NCBI GenBank assembly: GCA_963706795.1
Contig: OY970170.1
Span: 330,001 to 362,000, forward strand
Reading direction: 5' to 3'
Length of the DNA stretch: 32,000 nucleotides
Source: Candidatus Saccharimonadota bacterium
GTDB lineage: Bacteria > Patescibacteriota > Gracilibacteria > BD1-5 > UBA2023
A program made the position numbers and the translations under genes. Of the stretch, positions 2,893-31,850 are shown in pieces. Each line of letters opens with the position of its first letter. The stretch's first letter is position 1. The notes under the pieces were generated by a model. It had not been told where the DNA came from and ran no database searches. It saw nothing but the letters and a program-made list of their open reading frames with translations.

Positions 2893-3993
2893 TTAATATC
2901 TCGCAATTCCCATAGCACCCTTTACTTGAGCAAGAGTATTTTTGGCAACGTTTCTAGCTCTTTCGCTTCCGCTCTCGATACATGTTCTTAAAAATGCTTC
3001 TTCGCCATCAATCTGAGCACGTCGAGTGCGAATAGGATCGAGAAAACTATTCAATATATCAGTGAGAATACTTTTCAGTTCTGTATCACTGATTGCCCCA
3101 GCTCTATAGCGGGCTTTGAGTTGATCAATATATTCGATGTCCTTACAAAATGCGTCAAAGTGCATGAAGACAACATTCCCTTCTATTTTCCCTGGATCAG
3201 TAGCACGTATTCGACCTGGATCTGTATACATTTTTTTTACCTTTGCGCGCACTTCGTCTGAACTGTCAGACAGATAGATCGAATTATTAAGACTCTTACT
3301 CATTTTTGCCTTACCGTCTATCCCTGAAAGTCTGCCAACTGGAGCAATTACAGCCTTTGGAAGCTCGAAGGTTTTACCATAGCGATTATTAAAAATACGA
3401 GCAATTTCTCGCGTGAGTTCTATATGTGGAAGCTGATCATCTCATACTGGTACAAGTGTAGCCTTGGGCGTGAGAATATCAGCTGCCTGAGAAACCGGAT
3501 AATTAAAAAATCCTGCTGTGATACTTTCGCCGCGATCTTTTAGTTGTGTCATTTCAGTCTTGAGCGTGGGATTCTGATAGAGACGACTTATTGGTAGAAG
3601 ATTCATTAAAAACATCATAAGTTCCGTGGATTCTGGTACATAGCTCTGAAGAACAAAATCAGCTTTCACTGGATCAAGACCAACAGCAATCCAGTCTTTA
3701 AGAACTTCAAACACATCGGATTTTACTTTTACGACATCTTCTTTGTCAGCCATTACGTGGTAGTCTGCAATCAAAAACTGGCATGCAATATTCGGCATAT
3801 CCTGAATAGTAAGCCAATTATCGAGAGCTCCGACATAGTGACCAAGATGAAGTTTGCCACTTGGGCGCATACCAGTGAGACATGTTTCAATCTTATCACC
3901 AACCAAACCACGGAGAGACTCCATATCTTTAATGATGTGTGAATTCGTAGCGGCGATTACATTGATTTCATTCGAGACAATAGATGATTTCAT
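2893..3993 (-). CDS. trpS: Tryptophan--tRNA ligase
   Basis: ORFs 3442..3993 and 2893..3303 are in one frame. The TGA at 3442-3444 sits in VPV-G-DDQLPHIELTREIA, the conserved PVGxDQ Gly. HIGH-like GKLHLGH and KMSKS are both present. TAA stop at 2893-2895. Confidence 0.92.
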
Positions 3994-8488: not shown

Positions 8489-8588
8489 GACTGGTAAAAT
8501 ATATGAATATTTTGAAGTCGACTCACTGTGCGTCTCTGAGGTGCCCTCTGCTTTTGTCGATAAGAAATATTCATATATTTTACCAGTC
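8489..8588. repeat. 100-bp element bounded by perfect 24-bp inverted repeats
   Basis: GACTGGTAAAATATATGAATATTT (8489-8512) is the exact reverse complement of 8565-8588, with a 52-nt spacer. It lies between the ogt stop and the terminator at 8614. Confidence 0.7.
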
Positions 8589-9131: not shown

Positions 9132-9572
9132 ATGACAACAAAAAGAAAGTTGCGGGTTCCGGGCCTGCTATCACTGACCTGACTCGGCATATCCCTTTTA
9201 ATTCCCGGTTCGTACGAGGCAATGATGGCACAAATACCACAGGGGATGATATCTCAGAGCGTATCAACTGCTCAGGACATGCGCGAGTACTACAGGGAGA
9301 ATAGCTCGAACTTCAGATACGGCGAAAGGACCGCCGACATCCTCTCGATGGTCGTAGGTTCATATAATTTCGATAACTTTAATGCTTGCCGAAAGATCCT
9401 AGATTCAAACATCATTGCGCGAAAATTGGATGAGAAAATGCTAAATGGGTCTTGCATGGTCGGCATTGGTACGATGAACTGAGCTTTCACCAAAGAGGAC
9501 GAGAAGAGGTTCTTTTACGGATGCCTTATAGATGGACATCCGGCTGCAGAGTGTGCAGCGGTCAAAAAGTAG
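9132..9572 (+). CDS. Hypothetical N-terminally anchored/secreted protein (146 aa)
   Basis: ATG at 9132 (MTTKRKLRVPGLLSLT-G-LGISLLIPGSYEA...). It reads through TGA at 9180 and 9480 to TAG at 9570-9572 and contains track ORF 9222..9482. Confidence 0.5.
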
Positions 9573-9603
9573 GTCTTTCAGAAAAATCCATAAGCTAAAT
9601 ATC

Positions 9604-11334
9604 ATGCAAGACTTTCTATGTCTCATTTGAATAACTAAGTGCGCAGACCCGTTGCTTGTACCCGAGGCCTTCTCCGGTGAATTTATCAGATTCTACGAGC
9701 TATTAAGTCTGATAGGTATCATCATCGCAGGTTTACAATTCATGGATACGAAGATCCTGCGAAGATATCTTTTTCTCAAACACAGAGTCGCCTTCGTCAT
9801 CGGAATAGGACTCTCTGCCGGGTGCCTGATGACTAGTCACCTTGTTCCAATGATGCCATGACAGGCCTTGATATTCATTGGATATCCCTACTTCTGGGAG
9901 ATCCTTTCCATGTCGGCAATTGGCTGAGTAATGACATTTCTCCTTTTGTTCTCCATTTACCACAATAAGGATTCGTGGATAATTAAATATACCACGGAAA
10001 AGAATGTAGAGAACATAAACGGCATAGCGTACCACGCGATAATCGAGGAGCCTTCGGAAGAGACGTATCGCGCATTTTGCAGGATACTCCACATAAACCT
10101 GAGGACGGTTCTGGATGCCCTTAGCCGCTACGACAGGCATACATTCTATTTCACCGCGAGAGACCTAAAGGCGCTGCCGAACAGAGAAGATGATAGGACA
10201 ATCAATAGCATGGCATACTCCAAGGCCTGTTCTGGAACCGAGAAGGAAAAACGCATTACCAGATCAGCGATTGAACTCATCGAGGAAATACTTCCCGATC
10301 CGACCTTCTGCGCATATGTGGCATCGCGGGAATACTGATTATTGCTGGCAATCTTTGAGCAAGCCGAAAAAAAGAGATTGTGGAATTCCTGTGGCGAAGA
10401 TTTCATCCGCGTGCTCTCCGCAAATCTTATGGGCAATGCCAATTCGATCGCCAGCAAGGAGGCGAATCTCGACGGCCTCTATTCGAGAAAGCAGTTAATT
10501 CTGAAAATAGTGAAATCCCCAGGGATACTCGAAAACTACGAAATCATGAATTCTGGCTGCGGAATAACCGACAACAATCACAAGCTTGTAATCTTTCTAG
10601 CCGAACAGATCCTCTCGGAATACTTCTCAACCAAAGCGCTTCAGGAATCACCGCGGTACAGGTTTAAGCTGAAGGGCTTACTTGAGGGGATTATAGGTCC
10701 TTGGCATGCCAAGAGCAGCGGGACTGAGAAGGAATTCGAGATCGAAAATTTTACAAGCACTATTCCCCACATACTCATGCGGGGCTGAAGGTGGCTTCCG
10801 GAATGAGAGGAAAAGACCATGGTTTTCACCGAAAAAGAAAACAAGGCGGAAAAGGATACCCTCACAGGCGAGCTGGCCGAGATGCTTTTCCGGAAATTCG
10901 CAAGGATCCTTCGTAATCCCGAAGCGGACTGGTATTCCGATTCCCAGACCTATTGGTGGATCATATGGAATCACGATGCTTACGAAGACGGCGATTCCGA
11001 AGCAATAGTCAGTATTAGGCGGAAATTCTTGGAACTCCTGAAAGAACGCTTGGAAGATGAGGAAAGATGGCAATGGAAAAACTGATCCGTACTGAAGCTA
11101 CTCCTGACTGTCTTAGGCTGGAAGTTAAACCAATGAGAATTCACCGAGGAGGCAGACATGATCGCCTACTGGATAGAAACATCCTTCAATACCGAGTGGG
11201 CAGAAAGATTCCTGAAGGACGAAAGGTTCCGCGCGGCCAATCTTCCGGCAGATTTTTCCGTGGAGGACGGTAGAATAGTCGATAATGCTCATGGTTCGCA
11301 CGTTGTATATCCAGCGGTCCAAGAAGTCGCATAA
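9604..11334 (+). CDS. Hypothetical multi-pass membrane protein with a large soluble C-terminal region (about 576 aa)
   Basis: Track ORFs 9652..9861, 9931..10338, 10342..10788 and 10819..11085 all lie in the same frame. That frame has no TAA/TAG from about 9604 to TAA at 11332-11334. The N-terminus has about 3 hydrophobic helices. No family recognised. Confidence 0.55.
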
Positions 11335-11361
11335 CCACCCTCGAAGATCGCTCCATGCAAA

Positions 11362-11395
11362 ATTATAAAGCCCTGGATATCCGGGGCTTTATAAT
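11362..11395. other. Perfect 12-bp stem hairpin between genes
   Basis: ATTATAAAGCCC (11362-11373) pairs with GGGCTTTATAAT (11384-11395). Confidence 0.5.
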
Positions 11396-11418
11396 GGACC
11401 AGACCTAATCCATTGCCC

Positions 11419-12525
11419 ATGAAATACCTTCGCGAAGAACCATACTATCAAGACCTCTACGATAAGCGCGTCGTCCACAATTGCAGACTGACAGAAAAAG
11501 CAGCCAGTTCCGTGCCGCCCGAGAAGGTCGGGAAAATGCTCGTTACGAGCAACATAAGCAACTTCATCTTGCAGTTCGAAATGCTCAGGCTTTGAGCAAA
11601 ACGAAGGGAGGTAGTCGAGGAATGGATGGCCAAGGACCGGAAAAGGGATGGGTTTTTTGAGCGAACGCCCGTTCCCAAAGTGCAGTGCGAAAGATGCGGG
11701 AAGGCTTCGCCCGAATACAGGGACAAAACCCTGGAGACCTGATTTTGAAAAAAGCCCGATAGGATTCTCTTCTATTTCAAGTGCGATTCCTGCGGAGGGG
11801 TTACCACCGCCTACGACAACGGCGAGATACTTCCGAACAAAATACCCAAATGCCCAAAATGCCGGCACGAGCTAGCCAGTTCGCCGTACGTAAAGAAATC
11901 CAAGCATATCTACGAATCGAAGAATACCTGTGTCGCGTGCGGCTACGAGTCGATCGAACGAATGGACCTGACTCCGACTCCGCGGACCGAGGAACCCGAT
12001 GCTGAATTCGAAACGGACCGCACCCGCTTCTGCCTGCCGTACGAAGATGCCAAACGAAGGTACGACGAGTGGATCCGAAACCTGGATGAAATGAAGCGGG
12101 TGCTCGACGAAATAAACTGAAAAAAGGAGAACAAGCCCGTATACGATGCGCTGGAAAAGGTACGCAGGCTCAAGATGAAGCCTCTTGAGAAATACTTATC
12201 GGAAGCCTTTTTGAAAGTCGGATATTCGGACTTCAAGCTGTCGAAGCCAGCCGTGGGGAAAGACGTGAGAGCACATTTCACTATGGCAGAATGCGGCGAG
12301 GAGGAAAGCCAGTACGCCAGCGTCAAAAAGGCCAAAGCCAAGCTGGAGGAACTACTGAACGATACCAACTGGACGCTTATGAGCGAGGGGCTGGACTACC
12401 GGCTCGGGATCATCCGCTGAAGACTTCGCGGCATAGACAACAAGGAAGAGCTGTTGAAACTGACGGAACGGAGGATGAAAAATGCCGCGAAAGCAGCATT
12501 GAAGAAAACGGGCAAGGAGGGCTAG
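11419..12525 (+). CDS. Hypothetical double zinc-ribbon protein (368 aa)
   Basis: One frame holds ORFs 11413..11595 and 12175..12420 and stays open through 5 TGA codons to TAG at 12523-12525. Four CxxC pairs: CERCGK...CDSCGG and CPKCRH...CVACGY. Confidence 0.55.
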
Positions 12526-13499
12526 TCAGACTTAGAACGGAATTGCCTCCTCTCGCCGTAGAGGTCCACCTGCTGGATCAGGGTAACCAGGATCAGCCGT
12601 CCTATGAGGCAAATGGAGAAAATCGCTATCGCGATAAGCAGGAGTCACGCGGCAATCTCCAAGAAAAAGTACACCGTGCCGCCGATCGCGAAATAGTTAA
12701 CGGTCCACAGTATTCAGCCGTAGGCATTCTGAAGCATCGTCCAGACCGGAGTTCAGAAGAACAGGCTCCAGAAAGTAATGCCGAAGAGAACAAGGAATCC
12801 AAAGTTGTTTATGCGGTTTACGAACTCCAATTTTCTTACCAGCTCCTTCCTGACCCCTGAAACCTCCTTCTCGGAACAATTCTTCAGCCGGGAGACCACC
12901 AGCTTCCCATAGCTTTCGGCATTGGAAAACCTGTAGGAATTATACGCGGCATGAAAGCCGATGGCGCAGCTTTGGCATACTATCTTCGCGAGTGCCCACC
13001 CATTCTTAAGGCTCATCTTCCTGGTGGACGAGGCAATGAGAGGCAGGACTCAGAAGACGATGGCAGCATAGACGCTTGCCGATCCAAGGACTTGAAGCTG
13101 CTCCTGATTGGGCTTCATCAGCCACGAAAGCAAAAACAGTCACAAAAGAGCGGATGTCTCCATGCAGAGGATTATCCAGAAGAACATCGGTTTTCATTTT
13201 CCAGAAGGCTTCTTCTTCGCGGACATGTCGTTCAGTCCCCATACCGAGAAGACCACAAGGCTCGCGAAAAGGGCCGTGATTATTACCGCATTCCAAGGCC
13301 ACGCAGGAGTAGAATGGGTCTGTCAGAGAAAATACACGAGAAAGATTATGGCGATCGCGAATATTCACGCGTATTTCGCAGTTGCCGAAAAGAGATATTG
13401 AGTACCTCTTTCCTCTATTTTGATGCCGCTGTAAAAGTTTGTCCGGTGCATGAAGTCCGTGACTAGGTCGTAAGCAATGTCTTCAGGCTTAAACTTCAT
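12522..13499 (-). CDS. Hypothetical polytopic membrane protein (325 aa)
   Basis: ATG at 13497-13499 (MKFKPEDIAYDLV...). The frame holds ORF 12753..13016 and continues through several TGA codons to TAG at 12522-12524. It has many hydrophobic segments (IFAIAIIFLVYFL, FGFLVLFGITFWSLFF, LLLIAIAIFSICLIG). It starts 32 nt downstream of the hamB stop on the same strand. Confidence 0.6.
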
Positions 13500-13531
13500 T
13501 GTTTAATTGGAATTATGACTCATGTATTGGG

Positions 13532-16500
13532 TTATGAGACAGTAGCATAGATATAATTTTCAAGCTCTTTCTTAATCATGTTTTTTCCTTTTTTTGAGAG
13601 AGCATCGAGTAATCTTGTCTTATTTTTGATAAAATATTCCCTTGAATCCGCACTTCCATTTTCCGGGCGCATGAATCCATTGTGCCAAAGATAGATAGCC
13701 GACTCCCGCGACACGCCCAAGCTGACAAGGTACACTAGATTTGGAAGACAGGTCCCAAGTTCTAGGTAATAGAGGAAATTGACATCCAGCTTTCTATGCT
13801 CAAACTCAGCCGTATTAAAATCTCCACTAAGCTCAAGATATCTCTTGAAACCGAGGTTGACCACATCGAAATATACCCCGAAAGCATTCAGATACTCAAA
13901 CAACATGAGATCATTTATGGCTGTTAAAGTACTCATGTGGTATTTGGATTCGCCCGCCAAAATACTTTTCAGCGGTATGGAATTAATCCAACGATTGATC
14001 AGGCTAGTCAAGTATCAATCATATCTGTCTCAGTGGTGCATCAATCTTATCTCACCTTTGATCCTGGTAGGCTCTTGGACGATTAAAAATTTCTGCACTT
14101 CCTTTAGAAGCACGCCTATATCGAGACTCTTCTGTTTTCTGAAAAATTTCTTACCTTCTTTAGTAAAAAACTCCTCTTCTGAAAGATCAATATTCCGTAA
14201 AACCGAAAATATGTCGGAATATTTTTCTATAAATTTCGACATCTCGGCTCATCGTGCTATAACATTCTCGTATAAGTCAATCTGCTTACGCGGATCAGTG
14301 AAGATATTCTTCCTAATGACTGCAAAAAGCTCTTCATCGTCCGATATACCATTCCCCCTATCGACAGAGACGCGGGAAATTTCCGCGTAGATACCACCTA
14401 TGGATTTGTATAACTCTTGTAGCCTATCCTCTTTCTCGAAATGATCGCCCGGAATGTAATTCCTTATTTCATTGGCATATGAGAAAGCGCCTGTAAAGCC
14501 TGTGTCTGTTGTATGCCGAGGTAGATTGGCCCTTATGTTCAAAAGATTGGCCAGTGACTCAGGGGCACCAAGCTTATTTTCACGAAGCTTGGCATTGAGC
14601 ATTGTCTGATCCATATGTCTCACCAACAGGAAGCCCGTCATGTATTCGAAATCCTTCCTCTCGGAAAAAGAACTACCGCCTGTAGAAATTGGAGATTTGT
14701 ATTCATCGGAAGAGACATCGATATATTTGAGAAAACGCTCAAATTTTCAGCCATTCGCCCTCTCATCATCACGGAAAAAATCATCAAACTGACTCGGCAT
14801 CATTTCCGCAGCTCATCAATCAACAGGCAATTTGTCGGCATGCTCATCCTTCTTCAGGCCAATGAAGAATACATTGCCGCTGAGGTGCTTATTAAGCCTG
14901 CCTGCCCTTCATACCAGATTCTTTAAGTCTAATGGGCTAATGCTCTCCTTTCAAAAGTCAGATCACACGAAGATATTCTTTGCTGGCAAGTTCACGCCTT
15001 CCAGCAGCGTTGAATTTGCGCAGAGATAGCGCAGGCTTCCCGTCTTGAAAAGTTCTTCTATGCTGGTCTTTATCGAGATCGGAAGGGCTCAATTATGATA
15101 TGCCACACCTTTTTTCAGAAAATCGTTCAAGGTGAAGTCTTGCGGTAGAATATCTCTCAGGTATTCAGAAAGGCCGTTATTGGAGCCACTGGAATCCTCG
15201 AGTCACAGACATAGCGACTCCGCCTGTGATATGACCGTATCCTTTCAGTATCTGAAGAGTATTGAAGAATATCCGTCCCGGCTAAACAGGGGTGCCACGA
15301 GGGCGAGCATATCGCGCTGAATGGCCTTTCATTTCTGCTTGCCAAGATTGAATGAAAACAGCTCTTCATTGACTCAGCGAATATTCACGTCAACGGAAAA
15401 AGATCCCGCACCCAATGATGTTACATGGATAAGGTTCTTATTAACAAGTCAAAAGTTCGAAAAGCTATAAGAAATACTCTTCAGTCTGAATGCCTTTTCA
15501 AGGCCACTCAAGCCTTTAAGAAGAGGTGCCAAAAAACATATTTGCACACCAGGCTGATCTTTGCGGATTTCCTGGATAATGTAGCTTAACAGTATTCATC
15601 TATAGCCATAGGAAACTTTGTGCGCCTCATCAACCACGATGAAATCAACCGGAAAGATAAGCTTGTGGCGTCAATATTTTAAGTCCGAGTACAAGTAATT
15701 GAGCCTCTCCTGAGTAAAAAGGAATAGATTTGATTTTATTCTGAAATTATTCACATACTCGTCTCAGCCTATATAGGTATGCACGGACACATTTCACAGA
15801 AGATTGAGTTCCGTTAAGCTTTCCAAAAAATCATTCTTGAGTTCATTTACCAAAGCTTTTGTCGGGACAACAAAGACTACATTGGAAAGCCTTCCTTCGG
15901 CCTTAGCTTTCGCAAGCAAAGAAAGTATATAAAGCTTAAGCGTGAAAGTTTTTCCGGCGGAAGTAGGCGCGGATACCGCCAATGACTTACGCTCCTTGAG
16001 AACAGAGAAGACACTCGACTGAAAATCAGAGAAGAATACCTGTCTATCTAGATCCGATCAAAGCTCTTCTCGAAATGAAAATCGGTTTGATGCTTCCTTT
16101 AGCGATGCCTCAATCTTCCAATGAATTCCAAGCGAAATGGGCTCTACGCCGTCTATTTTCAGATTGCGGGCATCCGAGAGAATTCACAGCCGGGTAAATA
16201 TGCTGTAGATGATGGCGTTATCTTCAAAACATGAGTGAATCTCCACATTTTCACGCCCAAAAGGACCAGAGACTGTCTCTCCATAATAGTATGCACTGAC
16301 AGCGATGCGATACGCCATGTTGCGCATATCATCAATCTCTTCAATTTCATCCTCAGACTCCGATCATGTCAATCTTAATGCTGCGAATAGGAATGCTGTT
16401 TGGAGCAGTTTCCCGAGAATAGAAGAAGAAAGTTTTGAGCACTCATTTTTTAAGGAAGAGTCAATTGCGCTAATCAAAATCTGATCATTGGCTATGCTCC

Positions 16501-16621
16501 GTAAATCGCAAAGCGCACCTATTCTAAATATAAGCCCGTAGTCCTCTTCGAACGATTCCTCTTGAGCTATCTTTCGGCAAAGCCCCAGGACACGGTTGAA
16601 ACCGAAACTAGACTGTCCCAT
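13532..16621 (-). CDS. hamB: Hachiman HamB-like SF2 (Ski2/Hel308-type, DExH) helicase, 1029 aa
   Basis: Track ORFs 16364..16621, 15794..15982, 14249..14641, 14030..14242 and 13532..14011 are one frame, joined by about 22 TGA codons. Motif I SAPTSAGKT, motif II VVDEAH, motif V LCANSTLLEGVNLPA, motif VI LVGRAGRL. TAA at 13532-13534. Confidence 0.7.
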
Positions 16622-17777
16622 GTGTTGGTTTTAGTTTTTTCAAGAAACATTGTATGAGCTCTAGTTCATTTATGAGCGGCAGAAGAAAGATGGTCATTTT
16701 CCTTCCTCAAAGTTCAGTACTGATGGCATTGTAAGACTTAAGAGTTTTATGAATTCTCTTCAGGGTTACGTCGTTGAGGTACGTCATTTCGGGAATTTTT
16801 CCACTAACACAATTCGCATACTCAAAACATCAATACGAAATCAATGAAATGAGACCAAAGGGAATTTCCTCGAGTTGTTTGGCACGGTTCCAACTTCATA
16901 AGTACGGCAGAAATTGACCGCCAAAATTGGCATTCTCTAGGAGTTTGAATTTTTCTTCAGCATGCACGGCATGCGTTGAAATGATGGCAACCTCATTGTT
17001 CAAATCGCCTCCCCCTGTATTTAATAGGAATTCACGATTACTTTCCAGGGCATCAGACAGTGAATCATAGAATGACCTTGTAATCTTGGCTTCAAGAAAA
17101 TTATAAAATACTTCTCAATCCACAACCCCTATGTGTATCCCATCGGATCACTTCGATTTATCGTCACCGGAGGATTTGCAAAGACGTATCTTTGAAAAGA
17201 GGAGTGGAAAACCCAGAAATCATTCCACAAGGTAGAACAAAAGAAATTCCCCAACATCTCCATGCAGGTGACCAAGAATTTCCCTTGCAGTCTGTACCGA
17301 TCAGGATTTAAATAGGAATGATTGATCTTCTTTCAAAACCTCCAGCGTTATGCTTACCATGTGTTTTTGCAGGGCATCCGCAGCTTTTTTTCGAAAGTCC
17401 TTACTTTTAGACTTAAGTTCAGTTGCGGTCTTACAACCCATGCTAGCAAGGACAACATCATCGAGAAGCACTCCTACCACTTCGTTATACCTATTGAAGC
17501 GCTCTTTTACATACTCGATCATTCAAGGCTTGTGCGCTCAATCAAAGAAATAGTCGGTAATTTTTCCAAACAGAATACCTAAAAACTCATCATAGGTTTT
17601 TCAGGCTTTGATTTCGATCTTGAAAATATCACAGTTTTGATAGTACTCGGCGTCATCTAGCTTTAGAAGATCTCCAATTTTAAGACTTCTCTTCAAAAAG
17701 AAGTCATCAAAAATACCATCAAAATCAGTTTTTTTGATGGTACAGAAATCTCTTATATCCTCAACCACGTTAGACAT
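16608..17777 (-). CDS. hamA: Hachiman HamA-like protein (DUF1837-type putative nuclease), 389 aa
   Basis: ATG at 17775-17777. The frame includes ORF 17301..17522 and about 10 TGA codons, ending at TAG 16608-16610, which overlaps the hamB ATG by 14 nt. The core GDVGEFLLFYLVEGFLGFPLLFSKIRLCKSS...GSDGIHIGVV...FLEAKI resembles the DUF1837 GE..L / K / D-G-h-H / E-x-K pattern from memory. Confidence 0.55.
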
Positions 17778-17967
17778 TGGGCATCGATTAAAACCGGATC
17801 AACATCCACTCTGGGGAGGAAAAAGAATATGATTCTTTTTAAGTGAAGTTATGGCCAGTTTATAAGAAAAGCTAAATTATCAAATATCAGTCCGTCTATC
17901 CGAATTTCAGGACTGCACCAAAAACATGCCAAGTTAAATATGTTGAGTACCCGCTATTGTCATCTCT

Positions 17968-17991
17968 AAGACTGGATTTCCAGTCTTTTTT
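17968..17991 (+). terminator. Hairpin plus T-run
   Basis: AAGACTGG (17968-17975), loop, CCAGTCTT (17980-17987), then TTTT. No plus-strand gene lies upstream of it. Confidence 0.4.
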
Positions 17992-18006
17992 CCGTATTGT
18001 CACAGA

Positions 18007-18143
18007 GCTAAACAAAACCATGACACGAATGCGCTTTCACGCAATAGAGGTGAAAAGTGGGCAATTATCCACCCACTCCCCTTTATTGTGAGAGCTCGGG
18101 CATGGTTTTGTTTAGCGACAACCGGATAATTGCCCTCTTTTTT
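18007..18143 (+). promoter_or_regulatory. Interleaved inverted repeats (structured leader / attenuator candidate)
   Basis: IR-A GCTAAACAAAACCATG (18007-18022) pairs with 18101-18116 (16 bp, perfect). IR-B GGGCAATTATCC (18059-18070) pairs with 18124-18135 (12 bp, perfect), followed by T-run 18138-18143. A competing local hairpin is AGTGGG (18056-18061) with CCCACT (18072-18077). Confidence 0.45.
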
Positions 18144-18184
18144 GTATGCGAGGGCCAACCGGGGAAATCCTAACCTATCGCTAT

Positions 18185-19417: not shown

Positions 19418-20158
19418 ATGCCACGGAAATTCCCACACCCGAAAGTACAGTTGGACCGAGCTAGAATTATCGCTCCGTATCTCAGACTATTGGAAGATGG
19501 AAGCGAGGATTTCCAAAAAGACGTCGAAAACCTCCGGGCCAAATACAAGATCCCGAAGGGTAGTTGGGAAAACCCGCTCCGTCAGCTCCTAGAACAGGAC
19601 TACTGGAACCCCGGGTTCCAGTCCAACGGAGTCGTGACCATGTACGATGATGACAGACGGATTTTATGGAGAAAATTCCATGAGGATGTCGAAGCTCTCG
19701 CAAAGAAGTACAGGCTGGAGACATTGCCGAGTATCCTGAAGGAATTCGTGCTCGAAAACTGGTTCGGCGACGGAATTCGCCCCTACAGGATGGAAGCCTC
19801 GAGCGACTGATCCTGGACGCTGAAGATGTCTCGCACGATAAAAAAGAAAGAATTAGATGTCGCATGGATAGAATTCCAGCAAATCCATAAGAAGCTGCCA
19901 AACATCATCACTGATTTTACCGGCCACCCCGCCCAATCGGTTAGGAAATACGACTTAATTCAAGAGATTTCGAATAAATACGATTGAGACAAGGCCCTGC
20001 TTTTACTGCTCATCAAGAAAGAACTTTTCGGAAACCTTACGGCAGACGAGGAGCGAATATTAGAGAGATGAAATGACTCTGGAAAATTCAAACTGAACAA
20101 ACACATCGAAAATATATTCTCAATTCTGAAAGACTTCGGAAACTCTACGAATTGCTAA
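19418..20158 (+). CDS. Hypothetical protein (246 aa under table 25)
   Basis: ORF 19418..19810 reads through TGA at 19808, 19985 and 20069 to TAA at 20156-20158. No family recognised. Confidence 0.45.
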
Positions 20159-20204
20159 GTTTCAACTGAAACTTAGCAATTCCGAAAGCTGAATCCCGAT
20201 AGAA

Positions 20205-20238
20205 ATAGACCGAGCACACCGCTCGGTCTATTTTTTTC
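20205..20238 (+). terminator. Rho-independent terminator
   Basis: ATAGACCGAGC (20205-20215), loop ACACC, GCTCGGTCTAT (20221-20231), then a T-run. Confidence 0.75.
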
Positions 20239-20246
20239 TTTTACCT

Positions 20247-30562: not shown

Positions 30563-31230
30563 TAGTGGGACTTATAAAGTTTTTCGGCGATGGTCGTCTG
30601 GACTGGAATAGTGAGCGCTTCAGCAATTTCGGTCGTAATTCCTTGGCGCGGTGCGGCGGTGAGCAAGAAAGTTATAGTTACCTTTCATTCAGAGTCCGCA
30701 TTATTGGCAAAAGTCTTCGAATCAACACCAGATATAAAAAATCTGAGTGTCTTGATCCGCACACTCTTGTCCGTAATACGTATACGCTCACCATCCGGAA
30801 GCTCGCGACCAAGATAACAATCAGTATCACTCGCAGCACATTTTGTAGGAAGCGAAGCAAGATTATCGTGCATAAGATAGTACGACAGCGTGCAATTTTG
30901 ACCGCCTCATGGACAATTTTCTGGGGCTACTTTTGTGATGAGCACATCCGTTCCTGAGCTCGTATAATTGGTTCGTCCCGCCATAACATTGCAGCCAGTC
31001 GCCACGGCATTCATCTGATCGTAGCAAGCAAATGCAATACCATTGTCACGAATATCTTTGGCGATAATCTCTGTCACATTTCTCGCATTTTCTTGGAGTG
31101 AGCGAGCAACAGAGAGGCGCTTATTGAGATTGATGATATTGGAATAGATACCAAAAACACTCACCATCACAAATGATAAAATAGTGACTGCGATAATAAT
31201 CTCTATGAGCGTGAAAGCTTTTTTGTTCAT
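30562..31230 (-). CDS. Prepilin-type N-terminal cleavage/methylation domain protein (pseudopilin), 222 aa
   Basis: MNKKAFTLIEIIIAVTILSFVMV is the classic G/A-F-T-L-I-E pilin signal. ORFs 30907..31230 and 30685..30873 are in frame. TAA at 30562-30564 overlaps the next ATG (TAATG). Confidence 0.8.
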
Positions 31231-31850
31231 TATTTTTTCCAGTCAGTGAGTATGGTGTGCATGGCGTATTCGCGATAATCTCACTCCGTCGTCGCGAGGA
31301 CCGCAGTAATTGCGAGCGCAGAAGGTACCACTCAGACACTATCTTTTACTTCCTCAATTTGAACAAAGGTGTAGTAGGGCGTGGATTTTGCACCGACGCA
31401 ATCGTGAGTATAACGTCCGAGTTCATCGATACAAAGTCTGATTTCGGAGCTTCCAAGTGGAGCGTTTGCCTCGGATGACACCTTTGTTTTCGCGTCAAAA
31501 GTACCGGTCGCGATCTTTTTAAGAGCGATGGGGCTTTGAGTTGTATAGCGGTTTTGGATGGTATAGTATCCAGGTGAAAGTTCGCAATTTGCAGCACTGC
31601 TACAGATCGACATTTCAGTGAGTCCTTTCAGGGAATTCCAATTGCGAAGCGCGAGGTAATTGGTATCGCGGATACTCTTTACGAGCTCCATCTGCTCGCG
31701 GATAAGATTGGCCGCAAGGATTTCTTGCTTGGAGCGAAGCGAGAGATTCATCGCGCTTCTCACGAGCGAGTAGGCTCACAAAAATCAGACAGTGAAGATG
31801 AGTATCGCCACCATGACTTCTATGATCGTAAATCCTTTGTGCGATCGCAT
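31230..31850 (-). CDS. Prepilin-type N-terminal domain protein (PilV-like), 206 aa
   Basis: MRSHKGFTIIEVMVAILIFTV-G-FL-G-AYSLV. It contains ORF 31332..31763. TAA at 31230-31232 overlaps the next ATG (TAATG). Confidence 0.75.

What the first reader, a model, noticed from the sequence alone, without database searches (positions are those of the whole stretch)
13532..17777. Hachiman-like two-gene defence operon (HamA DUF1837-like plus HamB helicase) written in code 25
Two overlapping minus-strand genes (14-nt overlap). The first is a 389-aa protein whose core (GEFLLFYLVE...SKIRL...SDGIHIG...FLEAKI) resembles DUF1837/HamA. The second is a 1029-aa SF2 helicase with APTSAGKT, DEAH and GRAGR motifs, like the COG1204-type HamB.

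Together they contain about 32 in-frame TGA codons. They are therefore invisible to standard gene callers and to defence-finder pipelines run with table 11. Their low GC inside a GC-richer island suggests they were acquired separately.
Basis: partly seen in the sequence, partly recalled or inferred. Interest (0 to 1): 0.68.

Follow-up and report, generated by a model that had tools for sequence, protein, structure and literature searches.

The report
Hachiman phage defence in code-25 bacterium
Two overlapping genes encode a complete Hachiman anti-phage system (HamA nuclease plus HamB helicase) in a bacterium that reads TGA as glycine; the system is an ordinary known kind, but it belongs to a separate branch found so far only in such recoded genomes.

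Summary
The minus strand carries a 389-aa gene (17777..16608, 10 in-frame TGA) and a 1029-aa gene (16621..13532, 22 in-frame TGA). They overlap by 14 nt.

With TGA read as Gly:
- The first gene passes Pfam HamA/DUF1837 (62 bits, cut-off 25). It keeps the D-ExK nuclease residues that are invariant in 73 standard-code HamAs.
- The second gene matches PADLOC HamB1 (2.8e-93) with intact Walker A, DEAH and GRAGR motifs. It falls far below every housekeeping helicase cut-off.

TGA codons fall on invariant Gly columns of standard-code homologues, never on Trp, so the code is 25.

The nine closest HamBs (34-40% identity), including the only full-length relative among 185,579 species genomes, all come from TGA-recoded contigs. 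They form one clade with 100/100 bootstrap support.

Under table 11, no HamA fragment is detectable. Under table 4 or 25, the system is found.

The operon's GC resembles the host chromosome. The GC-rich flanks are a phage-like element (methylases, terminase, serine integrase), with an OLD nuclease beside it.

Verdict: a new member of a known kind. Function is inferred from homology only.

The parts
16608..17777 (-). hamA: 389-aa DUF1837/HamA nuclease effector with 10 in-frame TGA (Gly)
   Evidence: PF08878 at 62.1 bits against cut-off 25. PADLOC HamA1 PDLC00168 at 4e-19, covering residues 173-370. The start is supported by alignment with six clade HamAs.
17085..17252 (-). HamA nuclease core, residues 176-231: G176-E177, K196, G210 (a TGA codon), D212, E229-x-K231 (the D-ExK motif)
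   Evidence: These residues are invariant in 7/7 clade HamAs. In 73 standard-code HamAs, G176, E177, K196, G210, D212 and K231 are 73/73 and E229 is 69/73. The D-E(X)K motif and the dead E138A/K140A mutant are described in PMC12278908.
13532..16621 (-). hamB: 1029-aa Ski2-like SF2 helicase (sensor) with 22 in-frame TGA (Gly); overlaps hamA by 14 nt
   Evidence: PADLOC HamB1 PDLC00186 at 2.8e-93. Pfam DEAD and ResIII above cut-off. hhalign against 30 standard-code HamBs gives probability 100, E 3.5e-73, residues 14-992 against 3-810. PDB hits include HamB 8vx9_B and 8zue_B.
14861..16045 (-). HamB helicase core (RecA1 and RecA2), residues 193-587. Walker A APTSAGKT at 15947-15970, DEAH at 15620-15631, motif VI GRAGR at 14897-14911 (first G is TGA)
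   Evidence: Read from the sequence. The motif residues are invariant in the 8-member clade alignment. TGA falls on columns that are Gly in 55-56 of 56 standard-code HamBs.
17778..18145 (.). Intergenic region upstream of hamA, shared with the divergent gene at 18146(+). It contains a roughly 110-nt long hairpin at 18007-18116, at the GC boundary. The promoter is not established.
   Evidence: Inverted repeats I4 and I7. Fold z-scores of -6.35 and -4.79. One weak sigma-70-like match at 18092..18064(-); promoter-like sites are fewer than in shuffles.
20073..25665 (+). Context, not part of the system: a GC-rich, code-25 phage-like element. ParB-N6/N4 methylase 20073-21551, second methylase 21553-22302, HTH/TerS-like 22305-22727, TerL-like 22730-24217, large serine recombinase 24277-25665.
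   Evidence: Pfam hits. GC3 0.66. 53-nt repeat between the two methylase genes.
25773..27374 (+). Context: a single-gene OLD-family nuclease, a second defence gene, next to tRNA-Ser(GGA) at 27773-27862(-)
   Evidence: PADLOC Old at 1.2e-66. Pfam AAA_15 at 124.6 bits. tRNA.

Best explanation
This is an intact two-gene Hachiman anti-phage system (type I by PADLOC profiles) in the chromosome of a Patescibacteria/CPR bacterium that uses genetic code 25 (TGA = Gly). That code is known for Gracilibacteria and Absconditabacteria.

**Shown here**
- hamA encodes a DUF1837 nuclease with a complete D-ExK active site.
- hamB, translationally coupled by a 14-nt overlap, encodes a Ski2/Hel308-like SF2 helicase with complete ATPase motifs. 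It has the same end-to-end architecture as standard-code HamBs.
- The pair belongs to a monophyletic branch of Hachiman whose nine known members all sit in TGA-recoded contigs.

**Inferred from the characterised E. coli ECOR31 system (PMC12278908)**
- HamA and HamB form a heterodimer in which the N-terminal helical bundle of HamB holds HamA inactive while the complex surveys intact dsDNA.
- When phage infection creates free or damaged DNA ends, 3' ssDNA enters the helicase and ATP hydrolysis ratchets HamB.
- HamA is then released or activated and degrades phage and host DNA, which is abortive infection.

**Genomic setting.** The operon lies between GC-rich phage-derived genes and close to an OLD nuclease, so it is in a mobile defence island.
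For: **Family membership**
- HamA: PF08878 at 62.1 bits against cut-off 25, plus 17 PADLOC HamA profiles.
- HamB: PADLOC HamB1 at 2.8e-93, with 12 HamB profiles better than 1e-37.

**Catalytic residues conserved**
- HamA: G176, E177, K196, G210, D212, E229 and K231 match 73 standard-code HamAs.
- HamB: Walker A, DEAH and GRAGR are invariant in the clade.

**Gene order.** 76 of 79 standard-code HamB loci have a HamA-profile ORF directly upstream. All six clade loci where the upstream gene was read whole show a hamA-hamB junction of -8 to +12 nt.

**Architecture.** hhalign gives probability 100, E 3.5e-73, over residues 14-992.

**Code 25**
- At TGA columns, standard-code HamBs have Gly in 30% of cells against a 4.4% background, and Trp in 0.3%. 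Several columns are 55-56/56 Gly.
- HamA TGA-210 sits on a 73/73 Gly column.
- Reading TGA as Gly rather than Trp raises PF08878 scores by 8-32 bits in four HamAs.

**Clade**
- P0001-P0007 are 34-39% identical over the full length. The next hits drop from at least 518 to at most 197 bits.
- All are TGA-recoded.
- The one GTDB relative, L010, is a Patescibacteria MAG with 47 TGA in hamB.
- NJ bootstrap support is 100/100.

**Not housekeeping.** All NCBIfam helicase equivalogs score far below their cut-offs.

**Defence and mobile context.** Relatives sit beside type I RM, MmeI, GmrSD and serine recombinase genes.

**Mechanism.** From the literature.
Against: - There are no expression or functional data; everything mechanistic is by homology at 25-31% identity to characterised-type HamBs.
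- HamA has no sequence-level match to any solved structure, even with a 7-sequence profile.
- The Pfam match covers only residues 170-280. The first ~170 residues, presumed to be the HamB interface, are clade-specific and include an insertion of about 70 aa shared only with L008 and L004.
- HamB is about 190 aa longer than its nearest standard-code relatives, through insertions of unknown role.
- No convincing promoter was found.
- Structure prediction could not be run on the code-25 translations.
- The organism was not identified beyond 'code-25 Patescibacteria'.
- tRNA-Gly(UCA) is not in the window.
Confidence: 0.88

Rival explanations
1. The genes are decaying remnants. The TGAs are true stops in a standard-code genome, so there is a pseudogenised Hachiman and no functional system.
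For: Under table 11 the region is chopped into pieces of at most 159 aa. L010 and L090 seem to carry truncated hamA (178 and 152 aa).
Against: - There are 32 TGA but no in-frame TAA or TAG and no frameshift across 4.2 kb.
- TGAs sit on invariant Gly columns.
- The same pattern occurs in every gene of the window, including TrpRS and the pilins.
- All catalytic residues are kept.
Confidence: 0.02
2. TGA encodes Trp (code 4) or another residue, not Gly. The proteins would be the same family with a different sequence.
For: The public protein collection translated the homologues with TGA as Trp. HamA still passes Pfam with Trp, at 54.2 bits.
Against: - Trp makes up 0.3% of homologue residues at TGA columns, against 30% for Gly.
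- Invariant Gly positions of helicase motifs and of HamA G210 are TGA.
- Gly translation scores 8-32 bits higher.
- TGG is still used separately, 4 codons in the operon.
Confidence: 0.02
3. The pair is a housekeeping DNA-repair module (a Hel308/Lhr-like helicase with a nuclease partner) rather than an anti-phage system.
For: HamB is Ski2/Hel308-like. The best solved-structure hits include Pol theta helicase, Brr2 and Hel308. Hachiman itself responds to DNA damage.
Against: - It is far below all housekeeping equivalog cut-offs.
- The best profiles are all HamB.
- It is always paired with HamA.
- Distribution is patchy: 1 full-length relative in 185,579 species genomes.
- Neighbours differ in every locus and are RM, OLD, recombinase or phage genes.
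Confidence: 0.04
4. The operon is cargo of the flanking phage-like element. It serves that element (superinfection exclusion, or competition between mobile elements) rather than being a host chromosomal defence locus.
For: - It lies between GC-rich genes and next to two methylases, TerS-like and TerL-like genes, a large serine recombinase and OLD.
- Relative L001 has a homologous serine recombinase directly upstream of hamA.
- A long hairpin marks the boundary.
Against: - The operon's GC and GC3 (0.41 and 0.44) match the host core, not the element's (0.52 and 0.66).
- No direct repeats or att sites delimit an element.
- No capsid or tail genes were recognised.
- This differs from the best explanation only in who benefits, not in mechanism.
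Confidence: 0.3

Closest known systems
Hachiman type I (PADLOC HamA1/HamB1), the roughly 840-aa HamB group found in many standard-code bacteria and archaea
   Same: - Two co-oriented genes, hamA then hamB.
- DUF1837 nuclease with D-ExK.
- Ski2-like helicase with Walker A, DExH and motif VI.
- Homology runs from the N-terminal helical region to the C-terminal end.
   Different: - Identity in the helicase core is only 27-33%, and bit scores drop from at least 518 within the clade to at most 197 outside.
- HamB is about 190 aa longer through insertions in the C-terminal half.
- HamA is about 60-90 aa longer, with a clade-specific N-terminal part.
- The operon is written with 32 TGA-Gly codons.
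E. coli ECOR31 HamAB (PDB 8VX9/8VXA/8VXC/8VXY; Tuck et al. 2024, PMC12278908), the mechanistically characterised system
   Same: Same two protein families and the same catalytic motifs: D-E(X)K in HamA and DExH in HamB. HamB 8vx9_B is hit at 6.1e-12.
   Different: - ECOR31 HamB is 1174 aa, has DEGH rather than DEAH, and is classed as type III in PMC13064477.
- Only the RecA2 region aligns by phmmer.
- ECOR31 HamA is not detectable by sequence from this HamA.
- The mechanism is therefore transferred across Hachiman types.
PDB 9wh1_B (853 aa; deposited name 'DNA polymerase theta (Helicase domain only)') and 8zue_B ('Anti-bacteriophage protein B')
   Same: 9wh1_B is the closest solved chain by sequence: E 1.5e-28 over residues 193-587, plus a weak C-terminal match of 947-1011 to 777-842. 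Its length and layout are those of the ~840-aa HamB group.
   Different: I could not verify what entry 9wh1 is beyond its deposited name. The partner chain was not hit by HamA.
AbpAB (Hachiman variant with a Cap4-like nuclease fused to an inactive HamA domain)
   Same: A nuclease plus Ski2-like helicase pair that responds to DNA damage.
   Different: Here HamA keeps the active D-ExK residues. No Cap4 or other extra nuclease domain was detected by Pfam.

Membership tests
Hachiman (HamAB) | HamA carries the DUF1837/HamA domain (PF08878) | tested here: met
   62.1 bits against gathering cut-off 25, E 8.8e-17. 17 PADLOC HamA profiles hit, best 4e-19. 76 standard-code HamAs are hit by the clade profile, down to 1e-31.
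Hachiman (HamAB) | HamA has the conserved D-E(X)K metal-dependent nuclease motif | tested here: met
   D212 is 73/73, E229 is 69/73 and K231 is 73/73 in standard-code HamAs, and all are 7/7 in the clade. The motif definition is from PMC12278908.
Hachiman (HamAB) | HamB is a Ski2-like SF2 helicase matching HamB profiles, with intact ATPase motifs | tested here: met
   PADLOC HamB1 at 2.8e-93. APTSAGKT, DEAH and GRAGR are present and conserved. Profile-profile probability is 100.
Hachiman (HamAB) | hamA is immediately upstream of hamB on the same strand | tested here: met
   14-nt overlap. The same order is seen in 76/79 standard-code loci and in all clade loci.
Hachiman (HamAB) | HamB has an N-terminal alpha-helical bundle (NAH) that binds HamA, and a C-terminal OB-like barrel | tested here: inconclusive
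   Sequence homology extends over residues 14-190 and to residue 992 against standard-code HamBs. No structure could be predicted because the tool refuses code-25 translations.
Hachiman (HamAB) | Heterodimer formation, nuclease activation triggered by DNA ends or damage, and phage protection | not testable with these tools
   This needs biochemistry and plaque assays. Here it is inferred from PMC12278908.
Genetic code 25 (SR1/Gracilibacteria code) | In-frame TGA at positions that are Gly in homologues | tested here: met
   Gly 30% against a 4.4% background, and Trp 0.3%. Multiple columns are 55-56/56 Gly. HamA G210 is 73/73. Gly beats Trp by 8-32 bits in PF08878 scores.
Genetic code 25 (SR1/Gracilibacteria code) | tRNA-Gly(UCA) present, release factor 2 absent, and phylogenetic placement in Gracilibacteria or Absconditabacteria | not testable with these tools
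   The only tRNA in the window is tRNA-Ser(GGA). The nearest named TrpRS homologues are Patescibacteria, but the closest ones are unnamed.
Housekeeping Hel308 / Lhr / ligase-associated DEXH helicases | Score at or above the NCBIfam equivalog cut-off | tested here: not met
   Hel308 70.6 against 1200; PRK01172 74.4 against 891; DEXH_lig_assoc 63 against 850; PRK13767 43.6 against 849.
AbpAB-type Hachiman variant | HamA homologue with an N-terminal Cap4-like nuclease and a catalytically dead HamA domain | tested here: not met
   No other Pfam family reaches E ≤ 1 on HamA, and its catalytic residues are intact.
Hachiman type II (PADLOC HamA2/HamB2) | Best match to type II profiles | tested here: inconclusive
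   Type I profiles score best (HamA1 4e-19, HamB1 2.8e-93), but type II profiles are close (HamA2 2.4e-15, HamB2 1.1e-78). The clade branches apart from the sampled standard-code groups.

The most novel reading that the evidence does not exclude
This Hachiman lineage may be confined to code-25 bacteria. All nine known members are TGA-recoded. Essential glycines of the helicase motifs and of the nuclease core are written as TGA, so the genes are untranslatable in standard-code hosts.

If so, a genetic-code change partitions the otherwise freely exchanged 'pan-immune' gene pool, and defence systems then diversify in isolation within recoded lineages. In this window the operon has twice the local TGA density, which hints at import from a lower-GC code-25 donor. 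That would mean exchange continues inside the code-25 pool but not across it.
Probability: 0.4. Interest if true: 0.5.

Novelty: new member of a known kind. Interest (0 to 1): 0.35.

Why it matters
- It is a clean, checkable example showing that defence-system surveys run with table 11 miss whole systems in Gracilibacteria/Absconditabacteria-type genomes. Table 4 only partly rescues them, costing 8-32 bits on HamA.
- It adds Hachiman to the known immune repertoire of code-25 CPR bacteria. I found no paper linking the two in the searched library.
- It defines a small, well-separated HamAB clade restricted so far to recoded genomes. That clade is a usable test case for whether genetic-code reassignment acts as a barrier to horizontal transfer of immune genes.
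- It does not reveal a new mechanism.

Tried and rejected
**Searches that gave nothing**
- A word-indexed homologue search with HamA found nothing at E ≤ 1e-3. This is a sensitivity limit of the tool, not absence, because profile searches against extracted upstream ORFs found 76 HamAs.
- PDB sequence searches with HamA alone and with a 7-sequence profile gave only chance hits.
- The listing of cluster members on the closest TrpRS homologues returned no organism names, so the lineage could not be named more precisely.
- Rfam at gathering thresholds found nothing in the window. I had briefly suspected that the GC-rich, A-skewed flanks were rRNA or a large ncRNA. They are protein-coding phage-like genes.
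- The repeat search found no att-like direct repeats delimiting an island.
- The promoter and terminator scans were no better than shuffles.

No structure or fold comparison was therefore possible.

**Ideas tested and dropped**
- I tested whether the co-oriented membrane-protein gene 29 nt downstream of hamB (12522-13499, minus strand), or any other neighbour, is a conserved third component. No homologue occurs in any clade locus, so this was rejected.
- My first greedy ORF picks in the GC-rich flanks (for example 11850-13466 and 21603-22727) were wrong frames. They were replaced after seeing the 53-nt methylase repeat and the Pfam hits.
Full report
**1. Observation**

Reading the minus strand of 13300-18100 and listing ORFs with only TAA/TAG as stops gives two long ORFs:
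- 16608-17777: 389 aa from the first ATG.
- 13532-16621: 1029 aa.

They contain 10 and 22 in-frame TGA codons, 32 in total. There is no in-frame TAA or TAG. The second ATG (16621) lies 14 nt before the end of the first gene's stop (16608).

Under table 11 the same region yields in-frame pieces of at most 159 aa. Across the whole window, ORFs of at least 150 aa sum to 6,315 aa with TGA as a stop and 20,495 aa with TGA read through. Recoding is therefore a property of the genome, not of these two genes.

**2. What TGA means**

I aligned the window HamB and two relatives whose DNA I had (L001, L002) with 56 standard-code HamBs.
- In the columns under TGA codons, the standard-code proteins have Gly in 30% of cells, against a Gly background of 4.4%.
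- Trp appears in 0.3% of those cells.
- Several TGA columns are Gly in 55-56 of 56 sequences, including helicase motif positions.

In HamA, TGA-210 lies on a column that is Gly in 73/73 standard-code HamAs.

Translating TGA as Gly rather than Trp raises the PF08878 score of the window HamA from 54.2 to 62.1 bits, and that of three relatives by 23-32 bits.

This is code 25, which is known for Gracilibacteria and Absconditabacteria (PMC11452946). The defining tRNA-Gly(UCA) is not in the window; the only tRNA is tRNA-Ser(GGA).

**3. Family assignment**

HamA:
- It passes Pfam PF08878 (HamA/DUF1837) at 62.1 bits against a gathering cut-off of 25.
- It hits 17 PADLOC HamA profiles, best 4e-19.

HamB:
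- It hits PADLOC HamB1 at 2.8e-93, and 12 HamB profiles at better than 1e-37.
- In Pfam, DEAD and ResIII are above cut-off.
- A profile of the window protein plus seven relatives aligns to a profile of 30 standard-code HamBs with probability 100 and E 3.5e-73. The alignment runs over residues 14-992 against 3-810.
- The whole architecture is therefore shared, and the extra ~190 aa are insertions rather than a new terminal domain.

NCBIfam places HamB far below every housekeeping helicase equivalog: Hel308 scores 70.6 against 1200, and the Lhr-like PRK13767 scores 43.6 against 849.

**4. Active sites**

Tuck et al. (PMC12278908) describe a highly conserved D-E(X)K motif in HamA, whose E138A/K140A mutant is dead, and a DExH helicase active site in HamB.

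I extracted the ORF upstream of hamB from 79 standard-code loci found in GTDB species genomes. 76 of them match a HamA profile built from the code-25 clade. In the joint alignment:
- G176, E177, K196, G210, D212 and K231 of the window HamA are invariant (73/73).
- E229 is conserved in 69/73.

In HamB, S217-A-P-T-S-A-x-K-T225, D331-E-A-H334 and the arginines of GRAGR are invariant in the clade.

Nothing suggests inactivation.

**5. Relatives**

*Closest homologues*
- The protein search found seven full-length homologues: 34-39% identity, 953-1073 aa, 518-629 bits.
- After these the score falls to at most 197 bits for the common ~840-aa HamBs.
- All seven come from run-level (Logan) assemblies, and none of their genes translates with table 11.
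- Where I counted codons directly, hamB has 26-43 TGA. The database had rendered these as Trp.

*Species-genome scan*
- A scan of 185,579 species-representative genomes found only one full-length relative, a Patescibacteria MAG (JAUCCN010000004.1).
- Its hamB has 47 TGA and GC 0.19; the locus GC is 0.23.

*Tree*
- A neighbour-joining tree on 764 columns groups the nine code-25 sequences together in 100 of 100 bootstraps, on a long stem within the HamB tree.
- The window protein branches early.

*hamA in the clade loci*
- In six clade loci a full-length hamA (332-421 aa) lies directly upstream, with a junction of -8 to +12 nt.
- The other two loci (L010, L090) carry only a truncated HamA-like ORF upstream.

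*Neighbours*
- They differ from locus to locus: type I RM, MmeI, GmrSD/HNH, a reverse transcriptase, and serine recombinases.
- None of the window's neighbours recurs, except for a distant serine-recombinase homologue in L001.
- The system therefore has two genes.

**6. Genomic setting**

*Host*
- The window is chromosomal. It carries TrpRS at 2893-3993(-), an MFS-like transporter, and three genes with prepilin-type N-termini at 29660-31850(-).
- The named TrpRS relatives are Patescibacteria; the closest ones are unnamed.

*Right of Hachiman*
- ParB-fused N6/N4 DNA methylase, 20073-21551.
- Second methylase, 21553-22302.
- HTH (TerS-like) protein, 22305-22727.
- TerL-like protein, 22730-24217 (Terminase_6C and GpA_ATPase).
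- Large serine recombinase, 24277-25665.
- OLD-family nuclease, 25773-27374 (PADLOC Old 1.2e-66).
- tRNA-Ser.

*Left of Hachiman*
- Three ORFs without family hits.

*Composition*

| Gene group | GC | GC3 |
|---|---|---|
| GC-rich flanks | 0.49-0.52 | 0.61-0.66 |
| HamAB | 0.41 | 0.44 |
| Core genes | 0.42-0.44 | 0.35-0.45 |

But the compositional outlier is the phage-like DNA, not the operon.
- The operon does differ in TGA use: 22.5 per 1000 codons against about 11 in the core genes, the right-hand flank and OLD, and 16 in the left-hand flank. TGA makes up 30% of Gly codons against 15-17% in the core genes.
- Its relatives in low-GC genomes use 25-47 TGA per 1000 codons. This is compatible with import from a lower-GC code-25 donor. 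That is an inference.

**7. Detectability**

- Table 11: no HamA fragment hits any PADLOC model. Only two short HamB pieces (62 and 159 aa) give partial hits, so a HamA+HamB rule would not fire.
- Table 4: HamA still passes Pfam.
- 'Invisible' is therefore true for table 11 only.

**8. Mechanism (inferred)**

By homology with ECOR31 HamAB:
- HamB holds HamA inactive while the complex scans dsDNA.
- Entry of a 3' ssDNA end triggers ATP hydrolysis and conformational ratcheting.
- HamA is activated and DNA is degraded, aborting infection.

Shown here: the two families, the catalytic residues, the tight gene coupling and the shared architecture.

Not shown: complex formation, the trigger, the substrate, and protection. 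The characterised system is of a different Hachiman type. HamA's N-terminal ~170 residues, the presumed interface, are clade-specific.

**9. Novelty**

- Hachiman is well known, and defence systems in CPR bacteria have been surveyed. PMC12259885 does not mention Hachiman or genetic code in its main text.
- In the ranked results shown for the full-text search, no paper contained both 'Gracilibacteria' and 'Hachiman'.
- I therefore rate this a new member of a known kind.
- The only point beyond the ordinary is that the branch appears restricted to code-25 genomes (9 of 9). This rests on few sequences and on databases in which recoded genomes are sparsely and unevenly translated.

**10. Limits**

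- HamA has no sequence-detectable solved relative.
- The promoter is unknown.

Noticed in passing
window 18007-18116: A roughly 110-nt near-perfect long hairpin, with interleaved inverted repeats 18007-18022/18101-18116 and 18053-18070/18124-18141. It sits in the intergenic region between hamA and the divergent gene at 18146, exactly at the GC-content boundary. Fold z-scores are -6.35 (+) and -4.79 (-), and there is no Rfam match. It could be an operator, a terminator, or the scar or end of a mobile element.
   Followed up: partly
window 20073-25665: A GC-rich (GC3 0.66) phage-like gene block written in code 25, with in-frame TGAs. It holds a ParB-N6/N4 methylase, a second methylase, an HTH/TerS-like protein, a TerL-like protein and a large serine recombinase. 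No capsid or tail genes were recognised. It may be a degraded prophage or a satellite of a code-25 phage.
   Followed up: partly
window 25773-27374: A single-gene OLD-family nuclease (PADLOC Old 1.2e-66; Pfam AAA_15 124.6 bits) between the serine recombinase and tRNA-Ser(GGA) at 27773-27862. This is a second defence gene in the same island.
   Followed up: partly
window 21402-21454 and 22156-22208: A 53-nt direct repeat (85% identity). It is the conserved 'D(L/P)FGGSGSTLIACEQ' motif of two adjacent DNA methylase genes, and in both copies the second Gly of the FGGSG motif is a TGA codon. It revealed that my first ORF call for 21603-22727 was in the wrong frame.
   Followed up: yes
window 9532-13499: Three ORFs without any family hit lie left of hamB: a 600-aa protein with N-terminal membrane segments (9532-11334, +), a 368-aa protein with several CxxC pairs (11419-12525, +), and a 325-aa multi-pass membrane protein (12522-13499, -). 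The last is co-oriented with hamB and only 29 nt downstream of it. None has a homologue near other clade Hachiman loci.
   Followed up: partly
loci L004, L002, L008 (hamA/hamB): HamA comes in a long form (window, L008, L004; an extra ~70 aa around residues 80-160) and a short form (L001, L002, L006, L007). Yet L004's HamB is closest to L002's (68%). This suggests exchange of hamA and hamB modules within the clade.
   Followed up: no
L010 5424-5960 and L090 1713-2171: In two clade loci the hamA ORF appears truncated, to 178 and 152 aa covering the C-terminal half. This could be decay, an assembly error, or a start-codon artefact of the ORF calling.
   Followed up: no
window 8489-8588 and 27691-27730: There is a perfect 24-nt inverted repeat with a 52-nt spacer at 8489-8512/8565-8588. 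There is also a perfect 18-nt hairpin at 27691-27730, just beside tRNA-Ser. These are candidate terminators or island-border features; no matching direct repeats were found.
   Followed up: no
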